A stretch of DNA of 10,197 bases from a virus. Below, piece after piece: positions 49-9,278 of the stretch. Below the pieces are notes generated by a model. The model did no database searches and was not told where the DNA came from. It saw nothing but the letters and a program-made list of their open reading frames with translations. Both the position numbers and the translations under genes were made by a program. Location: UHGV virus genome UHGV-0383075; one strand, written 5' to 3'. Every line of letters starts with the position of its first letter. The first letter of the stretch is position 1.

Positions 49-1422
49 ATGGATTTTTCTCATATTTCTTCGTACCTATCCTCTGATTCTCGAAGTGGCT
101 GGCGTGAAAAGCTACTTGAAGCATCATTTCGAGGTGTGCCGTTTAAGGTTGAAGAAGAAAGTGCGGGAACCGGTCGCCGTGTGGAAACACATGAATACCC
201 GAACCGCGACAAGCCCTATACCGAAGATCTGGGAAAAGTCACTTTCCGCCCGTCCATCACAGCTTATGTGGTGGGAGATGACTGCTTTGACCAGCGCGAT
301 CGCCTGATTGACGCGCTGAATAAACCCGGTCCCGGCACGCTTGTCCACCCGACATATGGTGAGCTGAAAGTCTGTGTTGACGGGGAAGTTCGGGTCAGCA
401 CATCGAAAAGTGAAGGGCGTATTGTCCGCTTTGACCTGAAGTTTGTCGAAGCAGGAGAACTCTCTTACCCCACATCAGGTGCGGCGACGGCGCAGACGCT
501 GATGTCATCCTGTTCTGCACTGGATGACTGCATCAGTGACAGCTTCAGCGGTTTCAGTATCGATGGTGTGGCGGATTTCGTGCAGAACGACGTTATCGGT
601 AATGCCAGCATAATGCTGGGGTATGTTTCTGATGCGATGAAAGTGGTGGATTCTGCCGTATCGGATGCCGCCAGGCTGTTGCAGGGGGATATCTCGGTAC
701 TTCTGCCGCCGCCATCGTCAGGCAAAAATTTCGTTGAGCAGGTGCAGAAAATGTGGCGTACCGGGAAACGCCTTTATGGTAACACCAGCGACCTGGTCAC
801 CATGATCAAAACGCTTTCCGGTGTCAGCCTCGGCAGCGATCTGCAACCGCGCGGCGTCTGGAAAACGGACAGTAAAACCACCGCCACGGCGACGCAGCAG
901 CGTAACGTGGTTGCCAGCACCCTTCGTACGACCGCAATCAGCGAAGCGGCGTATGCCGTCACCCTATTGCCTGCGCCAACAACTTCCGCGGTGATGCAGA
1001 ATGCCGCAGTGGGGCCGTCAACAACACCCGCGCAGAGCACCGGCTGGCCTTCCGTCACGCATCCGGCACTGGACAATGCACCAGCGGTGAAAAACACGGT
1101 TGATCTGCCAACGTGGGAAGAACTGACTGACATTCGCGACACACTGAATACGGCAATTGATAAGGAGTTGTCCCGTACAACCAGTGATGCGCTGTTTCTG
1201 GCGCTGCGCCGGGTGAAAGCAGATCTGAATGCGGATATCAACACGCGCCTTGAACAGTCTGCACGGATCATTCAGCGCACACCGGATGAGGTTTTACCCG
1301 CGCTGGTGCTGGCGGCGACCTGGTTTGATAACGCGGCGCGTGACGCGGACATTATCCGGCGTAATGCCATTACGCATCCCGGCTTTGTGCCGGTGATCCC
1401 TCTGAAGGTGCCAGTGCAATGA
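49..1422 (+). CDS. Mu gp43 (N)-like tail protein, DNA circulation protein family
   Basis: 457-aa ORF with GAGGTG RBS 5 nt upstream of the ATG. The N-terminal pattern ASFRGVPF.V...GRRVETHEYPNRDKPYTEDLGK matches my recollection of the DNA-circulation N-terminal domain of Mu N. It sits immediately before a gp44-like gene as in Mu, and its stop overlaps the next start (ATGA). Confidence 0.65.
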   Translation: MDFSHISSYLSSDSRSGWREKLLEASFRGVPFKVEEESAGTGRRVETHEYPNRDKPYTEDLGKVTFRPSITAYVVGDDCFDQRDRLIDALNKPGPGTLVHPTYGELKVCVDGEVRVSTSKSEGRIVRFDLKFVEAGELSYPTSGAATAQTLMSSCSALDDCISDSFSGFSIDGVADFVQNDVIGNASIMLGYVSDAMKVVDSAVSDAARLLQGDISVLLPPPSSGKNFVEQVQKMWRTGKRLYGNTSDLVTMIKTLSGVSLGSDLQPRGVWKTDSKTTATATQQRNVVASTLRTTAISEAAYAVTLLPAPTTSAVMQNAAVGPSTTPAQSTGWPSVTHPALDNAPAVKNTVDLPTWEELTDIRDTLNTAIDKELSRTTSDALFLALRRVKADLNADINTRLEQSARIIQRTPDEVLPALVLAATWFDNAARDADIIRRNAITHPGFVPVIPLKVPVQ

Positions 1423-2498
1423 ACGATAACGTCACGCTACGGGTAAATGGCCGGGAGTGGAATGGCTGGACATCGGTGCGCATCGGTGCCGGTATTGAAC
1501 GGCTGGCGCGGGATTTCAGTGTGGAGATCACCCGCCAGTGGCCGGGAGATGAGGGTATCACCACGCTTCAGCCGCGCATTAAAAACGGTTCAAAAGTGGA
1601 AGTGCTGATTGGTGATGAGCTGGTGATCACCGGCTGGGTGGAGGCGACTCCCGTTCGTTACGATGCCCGTTCGGTCAGCACCGGTATTGCCGGACGCAGT
1701 CTGACCGCTGACCTGATTGATTGTGCAGCCGAACCGACACAGTTTAACGGACGATCGCTGGTACAGATTGCGCAGGCGCTTGCTGCGCCTTTCGGCATTG
1801 AGGTGGTGAACAGCGGTGCGCCGTCGGGTGTTATTCCTGATGTCCAGCCTGATCACGGTGAAACGGTGATCGAGGTGATCAACAAAATACTCGGTCAGCA
1901 GCAGGCACTGGCTTACGACGATCCGCACGGCAGGCTGGTGATTGGCGGTATTGGCTCAACGCGGGCACATACCGCGCTGGTACTTGGGGAAAACATCCTT
2001 TCCTGCGATACGGAGAAGAGTATCCGGGAGCGGTTTTCAGTTTACCAGGTGGCGGGGCAGTGTGCCGGAAACGACGATGATTTCGGTGAGGCCACCACCA
2101 CCGCGCTGCGGGCCCGCACAGAGGACGCATTTATTGCCCGTTACCGTCCGATGTATATCAGGCAGACAGGGCAGGCTACGGGGGCAGGCTGTATTGCCCG
2201 TGCTGACTTTGAAGCCCGACAACGGGCGGCGCGGACGGATGAAACCACCTATGTGGTGCAGGGCTGGCGACAGGGTAACGGTACGCTGTGGCAGCCCAAC
2301 CAGCGGGTGATTGTCTTCGATCCGGTCTGTGGTTTCGACAATACCGAACTGCTTGTCTCGGAAGTCACGTTTACTCAGGACCAGAACGGCACCCTGACGG
2401 AAATCCGTGTCGGCCCGCCTGATGCTTATCTGCCTGAACCCGAAGCCCCCGGCGCGCGGAAAAAGAAAAAAGCCAGAGTACAGGAGGACCCGTTCTGA
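1419..2498 (+). CDS. Mu gp44 (P)-like baseplate hub protein (phage late control D / gpD-like family)
   Basis: 359-aa ORF in the Mu-order position after the gp43-like gene. Start overlaps the upstream stop (ATGA) and its stop overlaps the next start (TGATG). Size and position fit the baseplate hub; family assignment is by synteny and size rather than an explicit motif. Confidence 0.55.
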   Translation: MNDNVTLRVNGREWNGWTSVRIGAGIERLARDFSVEITRQWPGDEGITTLQPRIKNGSKVEVLIGDELVITGWVEATPVRYDARSVSTGIAGRSLTADLIDCAAEPTQFNGRSLVQIAQALAAPFGIEVVNSGAPSGVIPDVQPDHGETVIEVINKILGQQQALAYDDPHGRLVIGGIGSTRAHTALVLGENILSCDTEKSIRERFSVYQVAGQCAGNDDDFGEATTTALRARTEDAFIARYRPMYIRQTGQATGAGCIARADFEARQRAARTDETTYVVQGWRQGNGTLWQPNQRVIVFDPVCGFDNTELLVSEVTFTQDQNGTLTEIRVGPPDAYLPEPEAPGARKKKKARVQEDPF

Positions 2499-3046
2499 TG
2501 AGTACGATTGAAGCCATGCAGCGACAACTCCTCGGCCTGATTGGGCGGGCAGTGGTGAAAAGCATCAGTGCCGCCACGAAATGTCAGACCGTGGATGTGT
2601 CCCTGATTGCCGGTGAACCCAAAGCCGGGGTTGAACATCTTGAACCCTACGGTTTTACCGCAAGGGCAAACAGCGGTGCGGAAGCGGTGGTGTTGTTTCC
2701 GGATGGCGACCGTTCTCATGCGGTGGTTGTTACGGTGTCGGACCGGCGCTACCGCCTGAAAGGGCTGCAGACGGGTGAGGTGGCTGTCTATGACGATCAG
2801 GGGCAGTCCGTGACGCTGACCCGGGAGGGGATCGTGGTGGACGGTGCTGGTAAAACGATCACGTTTCGCAATTCACCTAAAGCACGTTTTGAAATGGACC
2901 TGGAAGTGACAGGACAGGTGAAAGACCTGTGCGACTCCGGCGGCACCACCATGTCAGCGATGCGGCTTGCCTATAACGGGCATCGTCACAGAGAGAACGG
3001 TCAGGGCAGTAACACCGACAAACCTGATAAAGCGATGGAGGCATGA
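2498..3046 (+). CDS. Mu gp45-like baseplate assembly / spike protein (gpV-like)
   Basis: 182-aa ORF, translationally coupled on both sides (TGATG upstream, ATGATGG downstream). Size and position match Mu gp45; assigned by synteny. Confidence 0.5.
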   Translation: MSTIEAMQRQLLGLIGRAVVKSISAATKCQTVDVSLIAGEPKAGVEHLEPYGFTARANSGAEAVVLFPDGDRSHAVVVTVSDRRYRLKGLQTGEVAVYDDQGQSVTLTREGIVVDGAGKTITFRNSPKARFEMDLEVTGQVKDLCDSGGTTMSAMRLAYNGHRHRENGQGSNTDKPDKAMEA

Positions 3047-3471
3047 TGGAACTGTGGCTGACGGTGAACGGTAAACGCACCTGCGCCAGCGCACCGCTGG
3101 ATCCGCTGACCCGCGCCGTGGTGATTTCCCTGTTTACCTGGCGGCGGGCGGAGCCTGATGACAATGCCGACGTCCCGATGGGATGGTGGGGGGATACCTG
3201 GCCTGCGGTACAGAATGACCGTTACGGCTCCCGACTGTGGCTGCTTCAGCGCAGCAAACTGACCAATCAGCTGGTGCAGACGGTAAGGGGGTATATCCGC
3301 GAATGCCTGCAATGGATGATTGATGACGGCGTGGTGTCCCGTATTGATCTGGATATCCGCCGCACCGGGATTAATGAACTGGGTAACAGTATCACTCTCT
3401 GGCGTCGTGACGGACCGGTAATGATTTCTTTTGATGATCTGTGGAGTGCGATAACGCATGGCGGACAGTGA
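3043..3471 (+). CDS. Mu gp46-like baseplate protein (GP46 family)
   Basis: 142-aa ORF between the gp45-like and J-like genes, overlapping both neighbours. Size and position are as for Mu gp46. Confidence 0.5.
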   Translation: MMELWLTVNGKRTCASAPLDPLTRAVVISLFTWRRAEPDDNADVPMGWWGDTWPAVQNDRYGSRLWLLQRSKLTNQLVQTVRGYIRECLQWMIDDGVVSRIDLDIRRTGINELGNSITLWRRDGPVMISFDDLWSAITHGGQ

Positions 3472-4516
3472 ATTTCAGCGCCCGACGCTGGCAGAAAATA
3501 TCAGTATGCTCCGTAACGATTTATTCGCCAGGCTGGACGTCAGCGACACGCTCCGGCGCATGGATGAAGACGTGCGGGCAAAGGTGTATGCGGCGGCGCT
3601 GCATACGGTTTACGGTTACATCGATTATCTGGCAATGAACATGCTGCCTGACCTGTGCGATGAGTCCTGGCTGGCGCGACATGCTGCGATGAAACGGTGT
3701 CCGCGCAAGGGGGCCACGGCTGCCAGCGGGTATATGCGCTGGGAAGGTGTCAGCGATGGCCTGAAGGTGACCGCCGGGAGTGTTATTCAGCGCGATGACC
3801 TGGTTCAGTACACGGCAACTGCTGATGCAACCAGCTCCGGTGGTGTCCTGCGCGTGCCGATCGCCTGCTCAAGTGCAGGCGCGGTCGGTAACGCTGACGA
3901 CGGTACGGCATTAATCCTGGTCACGCCGGTGAATGGTCTGCCGTCTTCCGGTGTTGCAGATACCCTGACTGGCGGATTCGATACTGAAGATCTGGAAACG
4001 TGGCGCGCCCGCGTCATTGAGCGGTATTACTGGACGCCTCAGGGCGGGGCTGATGGGGACTATGTTGTCTGGGCTAAAGAAGTGCCCGGCATTACCCGTG
4101 CATGGACATACCGCCACTGGATGGGAACGGGGACTGTCGGTGTGATGATTGCCGGCAGTGACCTGATTAATCCCATTCCGGAAGAATCAACGGAAACGGC
4201 AGCAAGACAACATATCGGGCCACTGGCCCCGGTGGCAGGCTCTGATTTGTATGTATTCAGGCCGGTGGCACATACGGTGGATTTTCATATCCGCGTGACG
4301 CCGGACACACCAGAAATACGGGCTGCCATTACCGCGGAGTTGCGTTCGTTCCTGCTGCGTGATGGTTATCCGCAGGGAGAACTGAAGGTGTCACGTATCA
4401 GTGAAGCGATTTCCGGTGCGAACGGGGAATACAGCCATCAGTTGCTTGCACCGGCAGACAATATCTCCATTGCAAAAAATGAACTGGCGGTACTGGGGAC
4501 GATTTCATGGACGTGA
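3458..4516 (+). CDS. Baseplate J-like protein (Mu gp47-like)
   Basis: 352-aa ORF, typical length for Baseplate_J proteins, located between gp46-like and gp48-like genes and overlapping the downstream gene by 10 nt. Confidence 0.6.
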
Positions 4517-5091
4517 CAAACGATGATTACATCCGTCTGTTGTCGGCACTGTTGCCCCCCGGTCCGGCGTGGTCAGCCAGCGATCCGTCGATTGCCGGTG
4601 CGGCACCGTCATTAACCCGCGTTCATCAGCGTGCGGATGCCCTGATGCGGGAGCTGGATCCGCGCACCACCACCGAACTGATAAATCGCTGGGAGCGTCT
4701 GTGCGGCCTGCCGGATGAATGTATTCCCGCTGGGACACAGACCCTTCGCCAGCGTCAGCAACGGCTGGATGCGAAGGTTAACCTGGCGGGTGGCATCAAC
4801 GAGGATTTTTATCTTGCACAGCTTGCTGCCCTGGGCAGACCAGATGCCACCATCACGCGATACGACAAAAGCACCTTCACCTGCTCATCGGCCTGTACTG
4901 ACGCTGTGAACGCGCCGGAATGGCGGTATTACTGGCAGGTCAACATGCCAGCCGCCGCCAACACCACCTGGATGACATGTGGCGACCCCTGCGATTCCGC
5001 ACTGCGTATCTGGGGGGACACCGTTGTCGAATGTGTGCTTAACAAACTCTGCCCGTCGCATACCTACGTAATTTTTAAATATCCGGAGTAA
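4507..5091 (+). CDS. Mu gp48-like / YmfQ-like tail protein (DUF2313-type)
   Basis: 194-aa ORF, the same length as E. coli e14 YmfQ as I recall it, positioned immediately upstream of the tail fiber gene as in Mu-type tail modules. Confidence 0.55.
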
Positions 5092-5094
5092 TCC

Positions 5095-6141
5095 ATGCAT
5101 CGTATAGACACGAAAACCGCGCAGAAGGATAAGTTCGGCGCTGGTAAGAACGGTTTTACCCGTGGTAACCCCCAGACCGGCACGCCTGCCACCGATCTGG
5201 ATGATGACTACTTTGACATGTTGCAGGAAGAGCTTTGTGGCGTTGTTGAGGCATCCGGTGCCAGTCTGGAGAAGGCGCGGCACGACCAGCTGCTTACCGC
5301 ACTTCGTGCGCTGCTGTTAAGCCGCAAGAATCCGTTTGGCGATATCAAATCGGATGGCACTGTGCAAACGGCTCTCGAAAACCTTCAATTGCGAGAATCA
5401 TTCACAGGTGTGGTTGGTCAGGCCGTTAACCAGAAAATGAGCGTGGCAATAGCGTCGGCATCAGCAACATTCACCGCTGACCAGGTTATTGTTGGTGAGT
5501 CATTATCTGGCAAGCAGTACCGTGTAAGTTCGGTAAGCGAAACTATCAACCTCACCACGACTGGGGCGGGCGGGATGGATACAGGAGCAGCCCCTGCCAG
5601 TGGTTGGGTTGCTATTTACCTTATTTACAACCCAACGACCAACACCTCAGCATTACTTGGTGTTAACACGACAACCGTCGTTGCGCCTACAGTCTACGGC
5701 GGTGCAAACATGCCAGCGGGATATACGGCGAGCGCACTCGTATCCGTCTGGAGAACAACAAGCGGCTCTTTGCTTCTGAATGGGTACCAGCGAGGTCGAA
5801 AATTTTGCATCCCGCGTGTAGATGTACTGACCACAAGCAGTAACCCAGGACCATACTCACCAATCCCTCTTAGCGCAGCCGTACCGCTAAACGCTATAGC
5901 AGCGAGTGGTTACGCATTCTGTAACTCAGGCTCTGGTTCTGGGTTTGCGGTTTTGTCTGTCGGGTCTGATGCAAATGGGCTTGGGTATTTTCAGGTGTAT
6001 GCCGGGCTGGTTGGTTCGCTAGGGAGCGATATCTATTTTGAGAATACCCTCGCTGAACCTCAAAAACTTTACTACACGTTTACCTGGACAACGCCAGCAG
6101 TGTCAAATGCCACCATTGGGATAAGCGGTTATACGATCTAA
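5095..6141 (+). CDS. Tail fiber protein (Mu S-like conserved N-terminal region with divergent distal region)
   Basis: 348-aa ORF starting 3 nt after the gp48-like stop. The C-terminal two thirds are rich in Gly/Ser/Thr/Asn/Ala as in fiber distal domains. Base composition changes from GC-rich to AT-rich at about nt 5330-5350. Confidence 0.6.
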
Positions 6142-6148
6142 GGAGTGA

Positions 6149-6337
6149 ATGATGTCTGTTGTATATGTGCAGTTCTCGGATGAAAAAGAAACAGAAATCG
6201 TCTCTGTTTTTGCATCTCCAGCCGACCCGGATTACTACCATTTTCTTGGTGAAGTTGATGAATCTGATGAGAGATTGACAAACTTTTGGAAGCAATTCCC
6301 TCAGCATGGATTAGGATCTGGATCCTCCACGCCCTGA
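6149..6337 (+). CDS. Small hypothetical protein downstream of tail fiber (possible fiber chaperone remnant or cargo gene)
   Basis: 62-aa ORF (61 aa from the ATG at 6152) with a strong AGGAG RBS at 6141-6145. It is acidic, AT-rich, and sits where a tail fiber assembly gene would be expected, but it is too short and I do not recognise it as a Tfa protein. Confidence 0.35.
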   Translation: MMSVVYVQFSDEKETEIVSVFASPADPDYYHFLGEVDESDERLTNFWKQFPQHGLGSGSSTP

Positions 6338-6370
6338 ATGGGGCGCACTGGATAAAAAGTTTCCGGTCGG

Positions 6371-6416
6371 AGATAAATGAAACCGCAGCCACGTCGTATG
6401 CAAGAACGTGCTGCGG
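6371..6416 (-). terminator. Candidate terminator hairpin downstream of the dinI-like gene
   Basis: Imperfect stem CCGCAGCCACGT (6383-6394) / ACGTGCTGCGG (6406-6416) with an 11-nt loop. On the minus strand it is followed by a T-rich run (complement of 6371-6382, TTTCATTTATCT). The plus-strand tail is weak (TTGG). Confidence 0.3.
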
Positions 6417-6484
6417 TTGGCTGGTGAACTTCCGATAGTGCGAGTATTGAATGATTTCCAGCCGTTACCGATTTTACGTGTTAA

Positions 6485-6733
6485 TTAGTGAACAAACCAC
6501 TCGTCAGCAGATTCCCAGGTATCTTTCAGAGTCTCCTGAACAAAAGTTTTTGCAGAATCCTTATCTGCGGTGCGTGTAACAGAAAGGCCATCGTTGCTGG
6601 TGGCTTTTACGATCACCTCTACATCGTCATAACGTTTACTGATGCGTCGGGTTAATTCTTCCTTTAACGCATCCACAGCACCGGTTGGCATTTTAGTCAT
6701 TTTTTCTTTGGCTATGCAGATTTCAATACGCAT
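6485..6733 (-). CDS. dinI: DinI-family DNA damage-inducible protein
   Basis: 82-aa ORF beginning MRIE.CIAK...GA.DAL..EL.RRI and ending [16 protein letters not shown], which closely parallels E. coli DinI (about 81 aa) as I recall it. GAGGGA RBS 5 nt upstream of the ATG, with LexA boxes directly upstream. Confidence 0.85.
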
Positions 6734-6746
6734 AAAAGTCCCTCTA

Positions 6747-6766
6747 TACTGTGTTTGTATACAGTA
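6747..6766 (-). promoter_or_regulatory. LexA box 1 (SOS operator)
   Basis: TACTGT-GTTTGTAT-ACAGTA, a perfect CTGT-N8-ACAG palindrome with TA flanks as in the E. coli LexA consensus, sited between the candidate -10 and the RBS of the dinI-like gene. Confidence 0.75.
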
Positions 6767-6768
6767 TT

Positions 6769-6798
6769 ATTTTTAACTGTATGGATAAACAGTGTCAA
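6769..6798 (-). promoter_or_regulatory. Candidate sigma70 promoter of the dinI-like gene
   Basis: On the minus strand there is a consensus -35 TTGACA (complement of 6793-6798, overlapping the int stop codon), a 17-18 nt spacer containing LexA box 2, then an A/T-rich -10 (TAAAAA/AAAAAT, about 6769-6775), followed directly by LexA box 1. Confidence 0.45.
6776..6795 (-). promoter_or_regulatory. LexA box 2 (SOS operator) abutting the int stop codon
   Basis: AACTGT-ATGGATAA-ACAGTG, again CTGT-N8-ACAG, 9 bp from box 1. It lies in the spacer of the candidate dinI promoter. Confidence 0.55.
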
Positions 6799-7892
6799 GA
6801 GGTCTTATTTCTGCTCCTTTGGAGCTCTTCAAAACGATTATGTAAAGATTTCGGATACAGTTCGGTATATACCTGCCATAGCACGTTTAATGAACGATGC
6901 CCTGTAACCTGGGCGACTTCCTCAATACTAAAACCAGCCTCAAATAAGCGACTTGCCCCTTCTCTACGCAAATCATGGTATCGCAGATCTTTAATACCTA
7001 ATTTGCTTCTTACCCTCTGGAATCCCGCAGTAACAGAAGTGCTGTTATATGGAAAAATGAATTCTGATTTTTTGGGTTGTCGTTGGACGATATCCCAGGC
7101 TTCCCCAAGCAAGGCTACTTTCATATGGTTGCCTTCCTTTTTACGTGGATCTTTCCTGTCTCTTACGAGTATGGATTTTTGTTCCTGATCGAGATCCTCC
7201 CATCGTAATCGGCATACTTCACCGATTCGCATACATGACCACACAGAAAATTTGAGGATATCAACGAACGGAATTTTTGAGCATTTATGTGTAGATCGTT
7301 GTTGAAGACCTTCAATGAGCATGTCCAGTTCATCAGATGCCGGTCTACGATTACGACGATTTGATTTACCAATTAAACCAAGTTTAAGTAGATATGGACG
7401 AGCGGCTTTTGCTGGGTTTGATGTGTAATTAATTCCATATACAGGTTTGGCAGCATCCAGAACACTGCCAAGATAACTAACATCGTGGCTAACTGTAGCT
7501 GGACCTGCACCAGCGTTGTTTCTTAGCCTGCAATGTTCAATTACGTCATTTTCTGTCAGTTCAGATAGTTTGATCGCGGAGATGTCACTATCCATAAGCA
7601 GTTCCAGCACATATCTTTTAGTACGGCCTGCTTTACCTCCGGCATTTGGGTCATTTAAATATTTGTGTAGTAAGTCACGGACTGTAAGTCCGTCAACTGC
7701 ATTTGATGATGGAATGCCATATAGATCTAATTCCATCACTTTCTGTGTGCCCCATGTTTTGGCATGAGCATGTTTAGGGAATGTTTTGCTTTCCCTGTAA
7801 GTGATAACACCTTTTTCTTTGATAATCACATTACAGCGATAGCGTGGTGTGCCATCGGATTTTAGTCGTTTCTCTATGTTATAGTACGCCAT
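6795..7892 (-). CDS. int: Tyrosine-type site-specific integrase with N-terminal arm-type DNA-binding domain
   Basis: 365-aa ORF with GAGG RBS 7 nt upstream of the ATG. C-terminal catalytic signatures are present: ...RIGEVCRLRWEDLD..., ...LRYHDLRREGASRL..., ...GHRSLNVLWQVYTELY. The N-terminal stretch IEKRLKSDGTPRYRCNVIIKEKGV..SKTFPKHAHAKTWGTQ resembles the arm-binding domain of phage and island integrases. Confidence 0.85.
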   Translation of the reverse strand: MAYYNIEKRLKSDGTPRYRCNVIIKEKGVITYRESKTFPKHAHAKTWGTQKVMELDLYGIPSSNAVDGLTVRDLLHKYLNDPNAGGKAGRTKRYVLELLMDSDISAIKLSELTENDVIEHCRLRNNAGAGPATVSHDVSYLGSVLDAAKPVYGINYTSNPAKAARPYLLKLGLIGKSNRRNRRPASDELDMLIEGLQQRSTHKCSKIPFVDILKFSVWSCMRIGEVCRLRWEDLDQEQKSILVRDRKDPRKKEGNHMKVALLGEAWDIVQRQPKKSEFIFPYNSTSVTAGFQRVRSKLGIKDLRYHDLRREGASRLFEAGFSIEEVAQVTGHRSLNVLWQVYTELYPKSLHNRFEELQRSRNKTS

Positions 7893-7911
7893 TACACGAC
7901 CTCGTTATTTC

Positions 7912-7948
7912 GGGTTCCCATAAAACGTGGGAACCTGTGCGGGAACCT
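7912..7948. repeat. GGGAACC repeat cluster A: 8-bp inverted repeat plus a direct copy, 20-55 bp upstream of the int start
   Basis: GGTTCCCA (7913-7920), 7-bp spacer TAAAACG, TGGGAACC (7928-7935), then a further direct copy GGGAACCT at 7941-7948. Confidence 0.6.
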
Positions 7949-8125
7949 AACGCGAGAAAAATAGCCTGAAATGTTCAAAAATGCACGATAATCATGAAGC
8001 ACAAAAAATTAATCAAACCAGCGTGATGCCTGAAAAAACTGGTGTTTACTGGAATTCTCGGTTTAGCATTGCTCCTATGCTCGATAGGATGTACCGTTTT
8101 TTAAAAACAACTAGTTATACACTTT

Positions 8126-8147
8126 GTGGGAGCCTATTGGGAACCTG
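8126..8147. repeat. GGGAACC repeat cluster B: two direct copies
   Basis: GGGAGCCT (8128-8135) and GGGAACCT (8139-8146). The 10-mer TGGGAACCTG at 8138-8147 is identical to 7928-7937 in cluster A. I did not see this motif elsewhere in the window. Confidence 0.55.
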
Positions 8148-8160
8148 AAGTTTTGCTCTT

Positions 8161-8204: not shown

Positions 8205-8266
8205 ATTGACCAAAAACAACCGCGGTTATAGACTTTGCTCCAAATAGCTAAGGCTATTGCTTAGTA
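8205..8266 (+). promoter_or_regulatory. Candidate promoter and operator-like imperfect palindrome for the 8288-9278 operon
   Basis: -35 TTGACC (8205-8210), 18-nt spacer, -10 TAGACT (8229-8234). Downstream is an imperfect inverted repeat TAgCTAAG (8245-8252) / CTTAGTA (8260-8266), then GAGG RBS (8279-8282) 5 nt before the ATG at 8288. Confidence 0.3.
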
Positions 8267-8287: not shown

Positions 8288-8827
8288 ATGAATCCGTTTA
8301 ACGCCATTACTTTTGCTGCATTGTGCGGGCCTCTGGCTTGTCCTGCTGCTATGGCGCAGGAGTTCATCATCCAGCCAGCCCCTGTGATTGCTAAACCTTT
8401 TGAGTACTCTCCTTCTGTTGAGGAATTCTCACGCAGAATGGAAGAGGGTAAGGAGATCTTGCAAAAGTTAACAATTGCAGCAGATGACTACTATATCTGT
8501 TTGATTGATCTTAATAGCCAAGATGCTCGCGAGTTTGTTTCCAAAAACGGGACAGATACGACAGAGGCATGCGAAATGTTCCTGCGTGCTTTTGAAGAAG
8601 AAGTGAAGCGTACAATTGAATCGCCTCTGCCTGAATTTATCAGGTCAGAACTGAAGGTTTACTGGCGTCATATTGCTAAAGCTCGCTCATCTGTCACTCG
8701 CCTTAACAATTACATAAAGAGCATATTTAAAGAAACTGTTACGTTTAGCGGGCGCGCGGATCTTGCTGGAATTGCAGCACTAGCTAGTCACACATCAAAT
8801 AAGCTAAAATCGATGCAATTTCACTAA
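8288..8827 (+). CDS. Hypothetical 179-aa protein, first gene of a two-gene operon with a YafO-like toxin (candidate non-canonical antitoxin or partner)
   Basis: ORF with GAGG RBS and a stop 16 nt before the next start. It has a hydrophobic N-terminus (MNPFNAITFAALCGPLACPAAMA) lacking the basic n-region of a typical signal peptide, then an acidic, probably helical body. I recognise no family, and it is about twice the size of Phd/YefM/YafN-type antitoxins. Confidence 0.5.
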   Translation: MNPFNAITFAALCGPLACPAAMAQEFIIQPAPVIAKPFEYSPSVEEFSRRMEEGKEILQKLTIAADDYYICLIDLNSQDAREFVSKNGTDTTEACEMFLRAFEEEVKRTIESPLPEFIRSELKVYWRHIAKARSSVTRLNNYIKSIFKETVTFSGRADLAGIAALASHTSNKLKSMQFH

Positions 8828-8843
8828 CCGATAGCGGACGACC

Positions 8844-9278
8844 ATGCATCTAGAAGTCTCTATTAATCCAGAAACTAGAGCTGAATTTTTTGATGAAGTT
8901 TTTCTCAAATTCCCGGAGCTAGAGTCTTCTATCATTGATGATTTCAAGAGATACAAAGCAACCGGTGAGCTTCCGCATTATTTCGGTAGGGACGTTGCGT
9001 ATACTCAGCCCTATGGTGCTTTTCGGGCTGGGTTGATGCATATCCATCTTTGTCTACCGCCAAACAAGTTTCCCGAGAAACTTCCACAACCGGATAGGGT
9101 CTGCAAGAAAGGTGATCCTGATAATGATGCTTGTCTTGTGTATGTCCAAGGTGAGCTTTATGAGAATAAATATTCACTCATTGCTATTATGTATCCCGAT
9201 GCACATGAAAAAGCAAGAAAACATGATGTGATGAGCTATCTGGCGCGAATTGCCCAGAATTATAAAGATGAAAACTAA
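8844..9278 (+). CDS. YafO-family toxin homolog (putative ribosome-dependent mRNA interferase)
   Basis: 144-aa ORF. Segments DFKRYKATGELPHYFGRDVAY, MHIHLCLPPNKFPEKL and ACLVYVQGELYENKYSLIAIMYPDAHEKARKHDVM align by eye with E. coli YafO (DFISYKRDGVLPDTFGRD, VAHIHLANENNPFPPQL, AHLVYCQGAFDEQAWLLIAILKPEPHKLARDNNQM, recalled from memory). An intrinsic terminator follows directly. Confidence 0.6.
   Translation: MHLEVSINPETRAEFFDEVFLKFPELESSIIDDFKRYKATGELPHYFGRDVAYTQPYGAFRAGLMHIHLCLPPNKFPEKLPQPDRVCKKGDPDNDACLVYVQGELYENKYSLIAIMYPDAHEKARKHDVMSYLARIAQNYKDEN

What the first reader, a model, noticed from the sequence alone, without database searches (positions are those of the whole stretch)
6734..6800. 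Tandem LexA boxes controlling a phage-borne dinI homolog, with the promoter overlapping the integrase stop codon
Two CTGT-N8-ACAG operators sit 9 bp apart, with box 1 a perfect match to the E. coli-type palindrome. A consensus -35 TTGACA straddles the int stop codon, and box 2 occupies the promoter spacer. This predicts tight SOS repression and induction of a DinI-like protein from the mobile element. DinI modulates RecA filament activity, so a phage-encoded copy could tune SOS or prophage induction timing. Being convergent with int also allows transcriptional interference with the 3' end of int.
Basis: partly seen in the sequence, partly recalled or inferred. Interest (0 to 1): 0.55.

Follow-up and report, generated by a model that had tools for sequence, protein, structure and literature searches.

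The report
SOS-controlled phage dinI gene cassette
A temperate E. coli phage carries a small self-contained gene cassette for a DinI-like RecA-binding protein whose promoter holds two LexA repressor sites; the sites are real and conserved, but this kind of DNA-damage-inducible phage gene is already known.

Summary
Two exact CTGT-N8-ACAG sites lie at 6749-6764 and 6777-6792 and are the only ones in the window (0.07 expected by chance). Both score like recA or sulA operators. A TTGACA -35 (6798..6793) contains the integrase stop codon TGA (6797..6795). One box fills the promoter spacer and the other covers the predicted start site.

The errors: the boxes are 12 bp apart, not 9. And dinI (6733..6485) and int (7892..6795) are both on the minus strand, so they are tandem, not convergent.

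The 82-aa protein is a true DinI homologue (Pfam 1e-19, PDB 1GHH 4e-13). Its model best matches the two DinI structures, and all eight RecA-contact residues are kept or conservatively replaced.

The promoter, boxes, gene and terminator hairpin form a portable cassette. It occurs in many prophages, behind unrelated upstream DNA. In 16 divergent copies, 11 of 12 CTG/CAG positions are invariant (P about 1e-6).

LexA-controlled phage dinI genes are already documented (Gifsy-1/2/3, PhiKO2, Serratia OS31). This is a new member of a known kind; the only modest new point is the conserved two-operator layout.

Side observation: the 3'UTR is an unannotated two-hairpin element found in about 75% of complete E. 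coli genomes.

The parts
6795..7892 (-). dusA-type tyrosine integrase gene (365 aa). Its stop codon TGA (6797..6795) lies inside the dinI -35 hexamer.
   Evidence: ORF list and translation. Pfam Phage_integrase 1.1e-20. 99.8% identical to the integrase beside dusA in the ETEC H10407 prophage.
6793..6798 (-). -35 hexamer TTGACA of the dinI promoter
   Evidence: Promoter scan gives TTGACA-18-AAAAAT, 10 of 12 matches. Four of the six hexamer positions, plus one in the 3-bp gap before box 2's CTG, are invariant in 16 divergent cassettes. The mEp460 GenBank record annotates a promoter at the same place.
6777..6792 (-). LexA box 2 (minus strand CTGTTTATCCATACAG), filling the -35/-10 spacer and abutting the -35
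   Evidence: Exact CTGT-N8-ACAG. PWM 21.8 bits. CTG and CA are invariant and the G is at least 90% conserved across 16 cassettes.
6769..6774 (-). -10 hexamer AAAAAT (18-bp spacer). The alternative is TAAAAA at 6775..6770 with a 17-bp spacer.
   Evidence: Promoter scan. An A-rich block is conserved at this position.
6749..6764 (-). LexA box 1 (minus strand CTGTATACAAACACAG; the 20-mer keeps the full TACTGT/ACAGTA arms), covering the predicted transcription start
   Evidence: Exact match. PWM 22.5 bits, comparable to recA and sulA. CTG and CAGT are invariant across 16 cassettes.
6739..6744 (-). Shine-Dalgarno sequence GAGGGA, 5 nt before the ATG
   Evidence: Read directly from the sequence. One G is invariant in the alignment.
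6485..6733 (-). dinI-like gene (82 aa)
   Evidence: Pfam DinI 1.1e-19. PHROG 189 'RecA filament binding protein DinI' 5.7e-31. phmmer to PDB 1GHH/7YWA 3.7e-13 over the full length. The AF2 model (pLDDT 77) has 1GHH and 7YWA as its top two Foldseek hits, probability 1.00, TM 0.64-0.68.
6373..6476 (-). dinI 3'UTR, a two-hairpin element. Hairpin 1 has stem 6463..6458 / 6424..6419, and its loop carries the 21-mer CAUUCAAUACUCGCACUAUCG (6453..6433). Hairpin 2 is a 14-bp stem (6418..6381) followed by UUUCAUUU (6380..6373) and is the likely intrinsic terminator.
   Evidence: RNA fold -33.3 kcal/mol, z = -3.3. Covariation occurs in both stems across 86 distinct copies. Homology to other cassette-bearing phages ends at about 6380. 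Hairpin 2 in antisense is the terminator of Rfam CssrB.

Best explanation
Window 6798..6373 (minus strand) is a self-contained, SOS-inducible accessory gene cassette (a 'moron') of a temperate dusA-integrating E. coli phage.

Parts: a sigma-70 promoter with a consensus -35 and a weak A-rich -10, two LexA operators, a Shine-Dalgarno sequence, an 82-aa DinI homologue and a terminator hairpin.

Proposed working:
- In an undamaged lysogen, one host LexA dimer sits in the promoter spacer and abuts the -35. A second covers the start site. Together they shut the promoter.
- DNA damage activates RecA, LexA cleaves itself and the promoter fires.
- The DinI-like protein then binds in the groove of the RecA filament, as E. 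coli DinI does. That is the same groove used by LexA, UmuD and S24-type phage repressors.
- It would thereby modulate filament stability and co-protease activity. The likely effect on the phage is on the threshold or timing of cleavage of its own S24-type CI repressor.

Shown here: the sequence features, their conservation, the DinI fold and the conserved contact residues.

Inferred: LexA binding, damage induction, RecA binding and any effect on induction.
For: Operators:
- The only two exact sites in the window, with 0.07 expected by chance.
- PWM scores of 22.5 and 21.8 bits, against 9.2 for the next best site.
- They are the only boxes scoring at least 13 bits on this PWM in about 25 kb of the closest phage, SKA5, and in relatives.

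Promoter geometry. The mEp460 record annotates the same promoter.

Phylogenetic footprint:
- The layout -35 / box / -10 / box is kept in 16 cassettes from Escherichia phages, Erwinia, Mixta and others. Protein identity falls to 56-60% in these.
- 11 of 12 CTG/CAG positions are invariant, while box centres and flanks vary. Hypergeometric P = 1.5e-6.

Portability:
- Homology starts at the -35 behind unrelated upstream DNA.
- It ends after the hairpin.

Protein:
- DinI family by Pfam, PHROG and PDB searches, and by predicted fold.
- The RecA-contact residues of E. coli DinI are L13, L21, W71, W77, F78, E24, E69 and D76 (PMC9926225). They align with M15, L23, W73, W79, F80, E26, D71 and E78.

Precedent:
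- The Gifsy-1/2/3 dinI homologues are LexA-controlled and damage-induced (PMC3121763, PMC8072944).
- Klebsiella dinI is LexA-bound by ChIP (PMC10907235).
- The PhiKO2 and Serratia OS31 din-like genes carry LexA boxes (PMC7556043).

Relatives carry an HTH + Peptidase_S24 CI repressor.
Against: - There are no binding or expression data for this cassette.
- The -10 is weak (AAAAAT or TAAAAA) and the start site is only predicted.
- Box-to-box spacing varies from 24 to 29 bp among cassettes. This argues against strict cooperative contact between the two LexA dimers.
- Non-polar deletions of Gifsy dinI homologues had no significant effect on prophage induction (PMC3121763). The benefit to the phage is therefore unproven.
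- The window does not include the immunity region, so the S24 repressor is known only from close relatives.
Confidence: 0.85

Rival explanations
1. The main product of the cassette is RNA. The conserved two-hairpin 3'UTR (6476..6373) would be released as a 3'-end-derived regulatory RNA under LexA control, as DinR is from Klebsiella dinI mRNA. The DinI protein would be secondary.
For: - Against a cassette with 72% protein identity, third codon positions are only 42% identical. The 3'UTR is 73% identical and the 21-mer loop is kept exactly.
- The element follows the 82-aa DinI genes, divergent MsgA-like DinI-family genes and other contexts, on at least 120 viral contigs.
- Both stems covary.
- It occurs in 4064 of 5426 E. 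coli genomes, mostly unannotated.
- DinR is a precedent (PMC10907235).
Against: - Other cassette members (PhiR12_2, P-EibC, BP-4795, Erwinia/Mixta) have unrelated 3'UTRs with their own terminators. The element is therefore not tied to the two-box promoter.
- There is no Rfam family on this strand.
- Complementarity to the ftsZ initiation region is no better than for shuffled sequences.
- The 21-mer's invariance across the copies is partly an artefact of searching for that exact sequence.
- It could simply be a shared terminator or recombination module.
Confidence: 0.1
2. The DinI-like protein acts as an induction factor or antirepressor for the phage repressor (Tum-like or Gifsy-like logic), not as a RecA modulator.
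For: LexA-controlled antirepressors are linked to DinI sequences in phage 186 (Tum) and in the Gifsy operons (PMC3121763). The PHROG 189 profile is 151 positions long and the protein matches only its C-terminal half (positions 71-149), the layout a Tum-length protein would show.
Against: - The protein is only the 82-aa DinI domain and has no extra N-terminal half.
- In 186/PSP3 and Gifsy, antirepressor activity maps to the non-DinI part or to a separate gene.
- No second ORF lies between dinI and the terminator.
- Relatives have a cleavable S24-type CI, which needs no antirepressor.
Confidence: 0.05
3. The LexA-bound operators directly after the int stop codon act mainly as a roadblock or conditional terminator for int transcripts. 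int and dinI would then be co-transcribed only during SOS.
For: int and dinI are tandem, separated by 61 bp with no terminator between them. In the prophage, int is cut off from the early operon by attP and must use its own promoter.
Against: The identical promoter-operator module occurs without any upstream int in most other phages, so the operators were not selected for this role. No int promoter was detected in 7893-7980 by the consensus scan.
Confidence: 0.05
4. The two palindromes are chance matches, or are operators of a phage-encoded regulator rather than host LexA.
For: Relatives encode a 108-aa protein consisting of a LexA DNA-binding domain only, which might use the same sites.
Against: Chance is excluded. 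The sites fit the host LexA consensus as well as recA and sulA do. A phage LexA-like protein would add to host LexA control, not replace it.
Confidence: 0.02

Closest known systems
E. coli chromosomal dinI (LexA regulon; DinI structures 1GHH and 7YWA)
   Same: Same protein family and fold. RecA-contact residues are conserved. The C-terminal motif WESAD(D/E)WF is shared. The promoter is repressed through a LexA box near the start site.
   Different: About 49% identity. The protein is 82 aa rather than 81, with small indels. It is phage-borne and portable. It has two strong operators (in the spacer and at +1), whereas chromosomal-type dinI promoters show one box at about -39.
Gifsy-1/-2/-3 prophage dinI homologues of Salmonella (dinI-gfoA/gftA-irsA operons)
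   Same: Prophage-encoded DinI homologues under direct LexA control and induced by DNA damage (PMC3121763, PMC8072944).
   Different: The Gifsy genes encode 77-aa proteins (about 42% identity) in the nin region. They have a single box that appears to overlap the -10, and they are the first gene of an operon that also encodes the antirepressor. The cassette here is monocistronic, lies between the tail genes and int/att, has two boxes, and has no antirepressor ORF.
DinI-like genes of PhiKO2 and Serratia phage OS31
   Same: A din-like gene downstream of the tail genes, in the opposite orientation, with a LexA box about 14 bp before the start. The PhiKO2 gene is reported to be LexA-regulated (PMC7556043).
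   Different: One box is described for each of those genes. I did not align their sequences here.
Coliphage 186 Tum (LexA-controlled p95)
   Same: A LexA-controlled phage gene with a DinI-like domain.
   Different: Tum is 146 aa and has an N-terminal antirepressor half. The protein here is the DinI domain alone.
Dual LexA operators of lexA, recN, ydjM and colicin genes
   Same: More than one LexA box in a promoter, generally linked to tighter or delayed induction.
   Different: The colicin boxes overlap and the two lexA boxes lie 21 bp apart, start to start. Here the centres are 28 bp apart (24-29 bp among relatives) and bracket the -10 hexamer.

Membership tests
DinI family (PF06183) | Profile match above the curated threshold over the whole domain | tested here: met
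   Pfam 70.9 bits against a 24.2 cut-off, E = 1.1e-19, profile positions 1-63 of 63. PHROG 189 5.7e-31.
DinI family (PF06183) | DinI alpha/beta fold | tested here: met
   phmmer to 1GHH/7YWA 3.7e-13, residues 1-81. The single-sequence AF2 model (pLDDT 77) has order strand, short helix, helix, strand, strand, then two C-terminal helices. Its only hits at E <= 0.001 are 1GHH and 7YWA (TM 0.64-0.68).
DinI family (PF06183) | RecA-groove contact residues (hydrophobic pocket plus acidic patch) | tested here: met
   L13, L21, W71, W77, F78, E24, E69 and D76 (PMC9926225) align with M15, L23, W73, W79, F80, E26, D71 and E78. Five are identical and three conservative.
DinI family (PF06183) | Binds and stabilises RecA filaments and modulates co-protease activity | not testable with these tools
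   Needs biochemistry.
E. coli-type LexA regulon | Operator matching TACTGT-N8-ACAGTA | tested here: met
   Two exact CTGT-N8-ACAG sites, scoring 22.5 and 21.8 bits, within the range of the 28 input operators (13.1-26.9).
E. coli-type LexA regulon | Operator overlaps the promoter core | tested here: met
   Box 2 lies in the spacer and box 1 directly after the -10 of the only good promoter match (10 of 12) in this stretch. The start site is predicted, not mapped.
E. coli-type LexA regulon | Operators conserved in orthologous promoters | tested here: met
   11 of 12 CTG/CAG positions are invariant in 16 divergent cassettes, P = 1.5e-6.
E. coli-type LexA regulon | LexA binding in vitro or in vivo, and LexA-dependent damage induction | not testable with these tools
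   Shown only for homologues: Gifsy dinI (PMC3121763, PMC8072944) and Klebsiella dinI (PMC10907235).
Phage moron (autonomous accessory cassette) | Own promoter and own terminator flanking one gene | tested here: met
   Promoter. A 14-bp hairpin plus U-tract follows the gene, and its stem covaries. Both are predictions.
Phage moron (autonomous accessory cassette) | The same cassette occurs in different genomic contexts | tested here: met
   It lies behind int in the window, in 1720a-02, mEp460 and SKA5. It lies next to att or to unrelated DNA in Stx phages, BP-4795, P-EibC and PhiR12_2. Homology begins at the -35.
Gifsy-type dinI-antirepressor operon | Antirepressor gene co-transcribed downstream of dinI | tested here: not met
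   The terminator hairpin begins 66 nt after the stop codon. There is no dinI-sense ORF of 25 aa or more in between.
Tum-type antirepressor | N-terminal antirepressor half fused to the DinI domain (about 146 aa) | tested here: not met
   The ORF is 82 aa and aligns end to end with the 81-aa DinI.

The most novel reading that the evidence does not exclude
This phage lineage may carry a coordinated set of genes for manipulating the SOS response:
- a dual-operator, high-threshold dinI cassette;
- an S24-type CI repressor;
- in close relatives, a LexA DNA-binding-domain-only protein that lacks the cleavage domain and so might re-occupy LexA boxes after host LexA is destroyed.

In addition, the conserved two-hairpin dinI 3'UTR element is unannotated and present in about 75% of E. 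coli genomes. It might be a LexA-controlled regulatory RNA derived from the mRNA 3' end.

Together these would let the prophage set its own induction threshold and reshape the host damage response.
Probability: 0.12. Interest if true: 0.6.

Novelty: new member of a known kind. Interest (0 to 1): 0.3.

Why it matters
Prophage dinI copies are very common in E. coli. The 1.7-kb int-dinI query matched 5387 of 5426 complete genomes, typically at 2 places and at up to 11. That count includes the chromosomal dinI. One genome-wide study listed a prophage DinI-like gene among loci associated with the emergence of quinolone resistance (PMC10575684).

If these copies are released together on DNA damage, they raise the cellular dose of a protein that occupies the RecA filament groove. 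That could shift SOS mutagenesis, Stx-phage induction and antibiotic responses.

The practical gain here is modest:
- a precise map of the cassette, ready for testing;
- evidence that its two-operator layout is conserved;
- correction of the strand error.

Tried and rejected
- **Convergent transcription with int:** rejected. Both genes are on the minus strand.
- **Gifsy-like operon with a downstream antirepressor:** rejected. A terminator follows dinI and no ORF lies between.
- **DinR-like targeting of ftsZ by the 3'UTR:** duplex energies are no better than for shuffled sequences, with fractions 0.70 and 0.28.
- **Rfam:** no family on the dinI-sense strand. The only hit is a sub-threshold CssrB match on the opposite strand, which turned out to be a shared terminator hairpin.
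- **Other LexA boxes in the window or in relatives' early regions:** none scoring 13 bits or more. The YafO-like module at 8288-9278 has no LexA box.
- **Literature:** full-text searches found no description of this cassette's double operator and no occurrence of the 3'UTR 21-mer. The library lacks most subscription journals, so absence is weak evidence.
- **First viral-contig scan with the single protein:** it returned only near-identical copies. Diversity came from tblastn against phage records and from a profile scan of species genomes.
- **Heterology index:** not computed, because the published Lewis matrix was not available. A PWM built from remembered operator sequences was used instead.
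Full report
**What is in the sequence**

Read on the minus strand, the region runs as follows:
- the end of int, ...AAG ACC TCT TGA;
- the stop codon TGA (6797..6795), embedded in TTGACA (6798..6793);
- CTGTTTATCCATACAG (6792..6777);
- TTAAAAATAATA;
- CTGTATACAAACACAG (6764..6749);
- TATAGAGGGACTTTT;
- ATG (6733), opening an 82-codon ORF that ends at 6485.

The pattern CTGT-N8-ACAG occurs exactly twice in the 10,197-bp window, both times here. Chance expectation is 0.07, and none of 200 shuffles reached two matches.

I built a position weight matrix from 28 E. coli LexA operators. It scores the two 20-mers at 22.5 and 21.8 bits. The next best site in the window scores 9.2 bits. The best score in 300 shuffled windows is 19.1 bits. 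On the same matrix recA scores 22.7 and sulA 23.0.

The consensus promoter scan finds TTGACA-18-AAAAAT here, with 10 of 12 matches.

- The boxes are separated by 12 bp as 16-mers, not 9 bp. As 20-mers the gap is 8 bp, and the centres are 28 bp apart.
- int (7892..6795) and dinI (6733..6485) are both on the minus strand. dinI lies 61 bp downstream of int and runs in the same direction. The proposed convergent transcription and interference with the 3' end of int cannot occur. What dinI does converge on is the plus-strand tail-fibre operon (ORFs 5095-6141 and 6149-6337).

**Genomic setting**

The window is from a temperate phage.
- It has Mu/SfV-like baseplate and tail genes at 49-6141.
- The right-hand side carries a dusA-type integrase, an excisionase-like PrtN-family gene and an exonuclease.
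- The closest phage record is Escherichia phage SKA5, at 97% identity.
- The same dinI-int module is 99.8% identical in the ETEC H10407 chromosome. There the order is tail genes, dinI, int, dusA.
- The module also occurs in the lambdoid phage mEp460. That record already annotates a promoter at this exact spot.
- It also occurs in Phi1720a-02, whose integration into dusA has been shown experimentally (PMC6328086).

The window is in the excised (attP) configuration. A phage-borne dusA 5' fragment starts at 7981. The sequence GCTCCTATGCTCGATAGGA (8071-8089) matches the published attB core in 16 of 19 positions.

**The protein**

- Pfam DinI gives 1.1e-19 over the whole profile.
- PHROG 189, 'RecA filament binding protein DinI', gives 5.7e-31.
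- phmmer against PDB sequences finds E. coli DinI (1GHH and 7YWA) at 3.7e-13, aligned end to end.
- A single-sequence AlphaFold2 model has mean pLDDT 77. Its elements run strand, short helix, helix, strand, strand, then two C-terminal helices. The two DinI entries are its only Foldseek hits at E <= 0.001, with probability 1.00 and TM 0.64-0.68.
- The cryo-EM study of RecA-DinI names the DinI residues L13, L21, W71, W77 and F78 (the pocket for RecA F203) and E24, E69 and D76 (the acidic patch) (PMC9926225). In alignment A1 these correspond to M15, L23, W73, W79 and F80, and to E26, D71 and E78. Five are identical and three conservative.

Binding to the RecA filament groove is thus a well-founded inference. 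It has not been tested.

**A portable cassette**

Among 56 near-identical copies from viral contigs, some have completely different upstream DNA. In those, homology begins at the -35.

More divergent copies came from tblastn against phage records. I examined Stx1/Stx2 phages, 1720a-02, PhiR12_2, P-EibC and BP-4795, with protein identity down to 60%. All show the same layout: TTGA(C/T)A, a box in the spacer, AAAAAT, and a second box at -33..-14 from the ATG. Only 1720a-02 has int upstream, as the window does (as do mEp460 and SKA5). In Stx phages the cassette sits about 220 bp from the att duplication.

A profile scan of species-representative genomes found the layout again in Erwinia tracheiphila, E. 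tasmaniensis, Mixta tenebrionis, M. mediterraneensis and others (56-72% protein identity). Judged by eye from their translations, neighbouring ORFs in these loci look phage- or island-like (BRO-type antirepressor, Arc/Mnt-like repressor, tail fibre), or the locus lies beside an smpB-like gene.

In an alignment of 16 such promoters, the invariant columns are:
- four of the six -35 positions (TTGA), plus the A two bases before box 2's CTG;
- CTG and CA of box 2, with the G at least 90% conserved;
- an A in the -10;
- CTG and CAGT of box 1;
- one further A inside box 1;
- one Shine-Dalgarno G;
- the TG of the start codon (one copy starts with GTG).

The box centres and the flanks vary. Eleven of the twelve CTG/CAG positions are invariant, giving a hypergeometric P of 1.5e-6. 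This is the footprint expected of functional LexA operators.

Other dinI promoters differ. Chromosomal-type dinI promoters, the 77-aa Gifsy/nin-region class and Klebsiella phage P18-100 each have one strong box. Box spacing in the two-box class ranges from 24 to 29 bp. What is conserved is each box's position relative to the promoter hexamers, not helical phasing between the boxes.

The two dinI boxes are also the only boxes scoring 13 bits or more in about 25 kb of SKA5 and in related prophage ends. In those same loci the host lexA operators were recovered as positive controls, although those two operators were among the 28 used to build the matrix.

**The downstream end**

Sixty-six nucleotides after the stop codon, a 14-bp hairpin (6418..6381) is followed by UUUCAUUU. 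The 120-nt 3' region folds at -33.3 kcal/mol, z = -3.3. Homology to mEp460, H10407 and most relatives ends at about 6380. Other cassette members carry different 3'UTRs, and several of these also end in a GC-rich hairpin followed by a T-run. No dinI-sense ORF lies between dinI and the hairpin.

The unit is therefore monocistronic: promoter, operators, gene, terminator. That is a classical moron. It is unlike the Gifsy dinI-antirepressor-irsA operons.

**Most likely mechanism**

1. LexA represses the promoter from two positions: in the spacer next to the -35, and over +1.
2. RecA-stimulated LexA cleavage derepresses it.
3. The DinI-like protein occupies the RecA filament groove.

That groove is shared by LexA, UmuD and lambda-type CI (PMC9926225). 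Close relatives of this phage have an HTH + Peptidase_S24 CI repressor. The plausible phage-level role is to modulate the threshold or kinetics of its own induction and of host SOS functions. Two strong operators would be expected to lower basal expression and may delay induction.

Steps 1 to 3 rest on sequence, comparison and precedent. None was tested here. In Gifsy prophages, non-polar dinI deletions had no significant effect on induction (PMC3121763), so the size of any effect is uncertain. I put 0.85 on 'LexA-repressed, SOS-inducible DinI moron' and about 0.6 on RecA-filament binding as the protein's activity. The benefit to the phage remains open.

**Comparison with what is known**

- LexA-controlled phage or prophage dinI genes are documented for Gifsy-1/2/3, with a functional promoter replacement and damage induction (PMC3121763, PMC8072944).
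- PhiKO2 and a Serratia phage have a din-like gene downstream of, and opposite to, the tail genes, with a LexA box 14 bp upstream (PMC7556043).
- Tum of phage 186 is a LexA-controlled fusion of an antirepressor and a DinI domain.
- Klebsiella chromosomal dinI is bound by LexA in ChIP (PMC10907235).
- Prophage DinI-like genes are routinely listed as cargo (PMC6456863, PMC10575684).

I found no paper that describes the conserved two-operator promoter of this 82-aa subfamily. The searchable library omits most subscription journals. The finding is a new member of a known kind, with a modest architectural twist. The overlap of the -35 with the int stop codon is a by-product of where the cassette landed.

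**Things seen on the way**

The dinI 3'UTR (about 6476..6373) is a discrete two-hairpin element.
- It follows the 82-aa DinI genes, MsgA-like DinI-family genes and unrelated contexts.
- Both stems covary.
- Against a cassette whose third codon positions are only 42% identical, the 3'UTR is 73% identical.
- The element matches 4064 of 5426 complete E. coli genomes and is almost always unannotated.
- Rfam has nothing on this strand. The antisense of the terminator hairpin is the 3' end of CssrB.
- A DinR-like pairing with ftsZ is not supported.

Relatives also encode a 108-aa protein that is a LexA DNA-binding domain only. It is 43% identical to LexA residues 1-86 and its recognition helix is largely kept. 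It might occupy the same boxes without being cleavable. That gene lies outside the window.

**Verdict**

- Novelty is low, and interest is about 0.3.

Noticed in passing
window 6373-6476 (minus strand): The dinI 3'UTR is a discrete two-hairpin element of about 100 nt with a conserved 21-nt loop sequence (CAUUCAAUACUCGCACUAUCG, 6453..6433). It occurs after the 82-aa DinI genes, after MsgA-like DinI-family genes and in other contexts, on at least 120 viral contigs. It matches 4064 of 5426 E. coli genomes, mostly unannotated. Both stems covary. No Rfam family covers this strand, and it shows no ftsZ complementarity.
   Followed up: partly
window 6375-6415 (plus strand); L101:2868-3047: A sub-threshold Rfam hit to CssrB (RF02799, model positions 141-180, 27.7 bits). 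The terminator of this Shigella sRNA is the antisense of the dinI terminator hairpin. A full CssrB copy lies 1.1 kb beyond a dinI cassette in E. coli ECMA0423. The hairpin appears to be a shared, possibly bidirectional, terminator module.
   Followed up: partly
window 7981-8148, core 8071-8089: A phage-borne 5' fragment of dusA (MHDNHEAQKINQTSVMPEKTG...SIAPMLD) together with the attP core. The window is in the excised configuration. In the prophage, int-dinI ends up beside a dusA gene rebuilt with a phage-derived N-terminus, and is separated from xis and the early operon.
   Followed up: partly
window 8288-9278 (plus strand): A two-gene module next to attP: a 179-aa ORF of unknown function (PHROG 8416), followed by a YafO-toxin family protein (Pfam 1.9e-21). 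A promoter-like site lies at 8206-8234. It may be a toxin-antitoxin or defence cargo. There is no LexA box, although chromosomal yafO belongs to the SOS-regulated dinB operon.
   Followed up: partly
L334:3485-3811 (SKA5); L335:20072-20398 and the same position in L336-L339: Close relatives encode a 108-aa protein consisting only of a LexA DNA-binding domain (PF01726, 2.9e-19). It is 43% identical to E. coli LexA residues 1-86, with recognition helix RSVNAAVEHL against RSPNAAEEHL. It lies between dam and rusA and lacks the cleavage domain. It might bind LexA boxes, including the dinI operators. It lies outside the window.
   Followed up: partly
L335-L340 (prophage left ends): The dusA integration site places these prophages about 4-5 kb from the host lexA-dinF genes. 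This is probably coincidence.
   Followed up: no
window 6142-6380: Between the tail-fibre gene and the dinI terminator, the window has a short 62-aa ORF (6149-6337, PHROG 20339, unknown function). SKA5 and H10407 instead carry tail-fibre assembly genes and a DNA invertase there. The homology breakpoint at about 6380 coincides with the end of the dinI hairpin.
   Followed up: no
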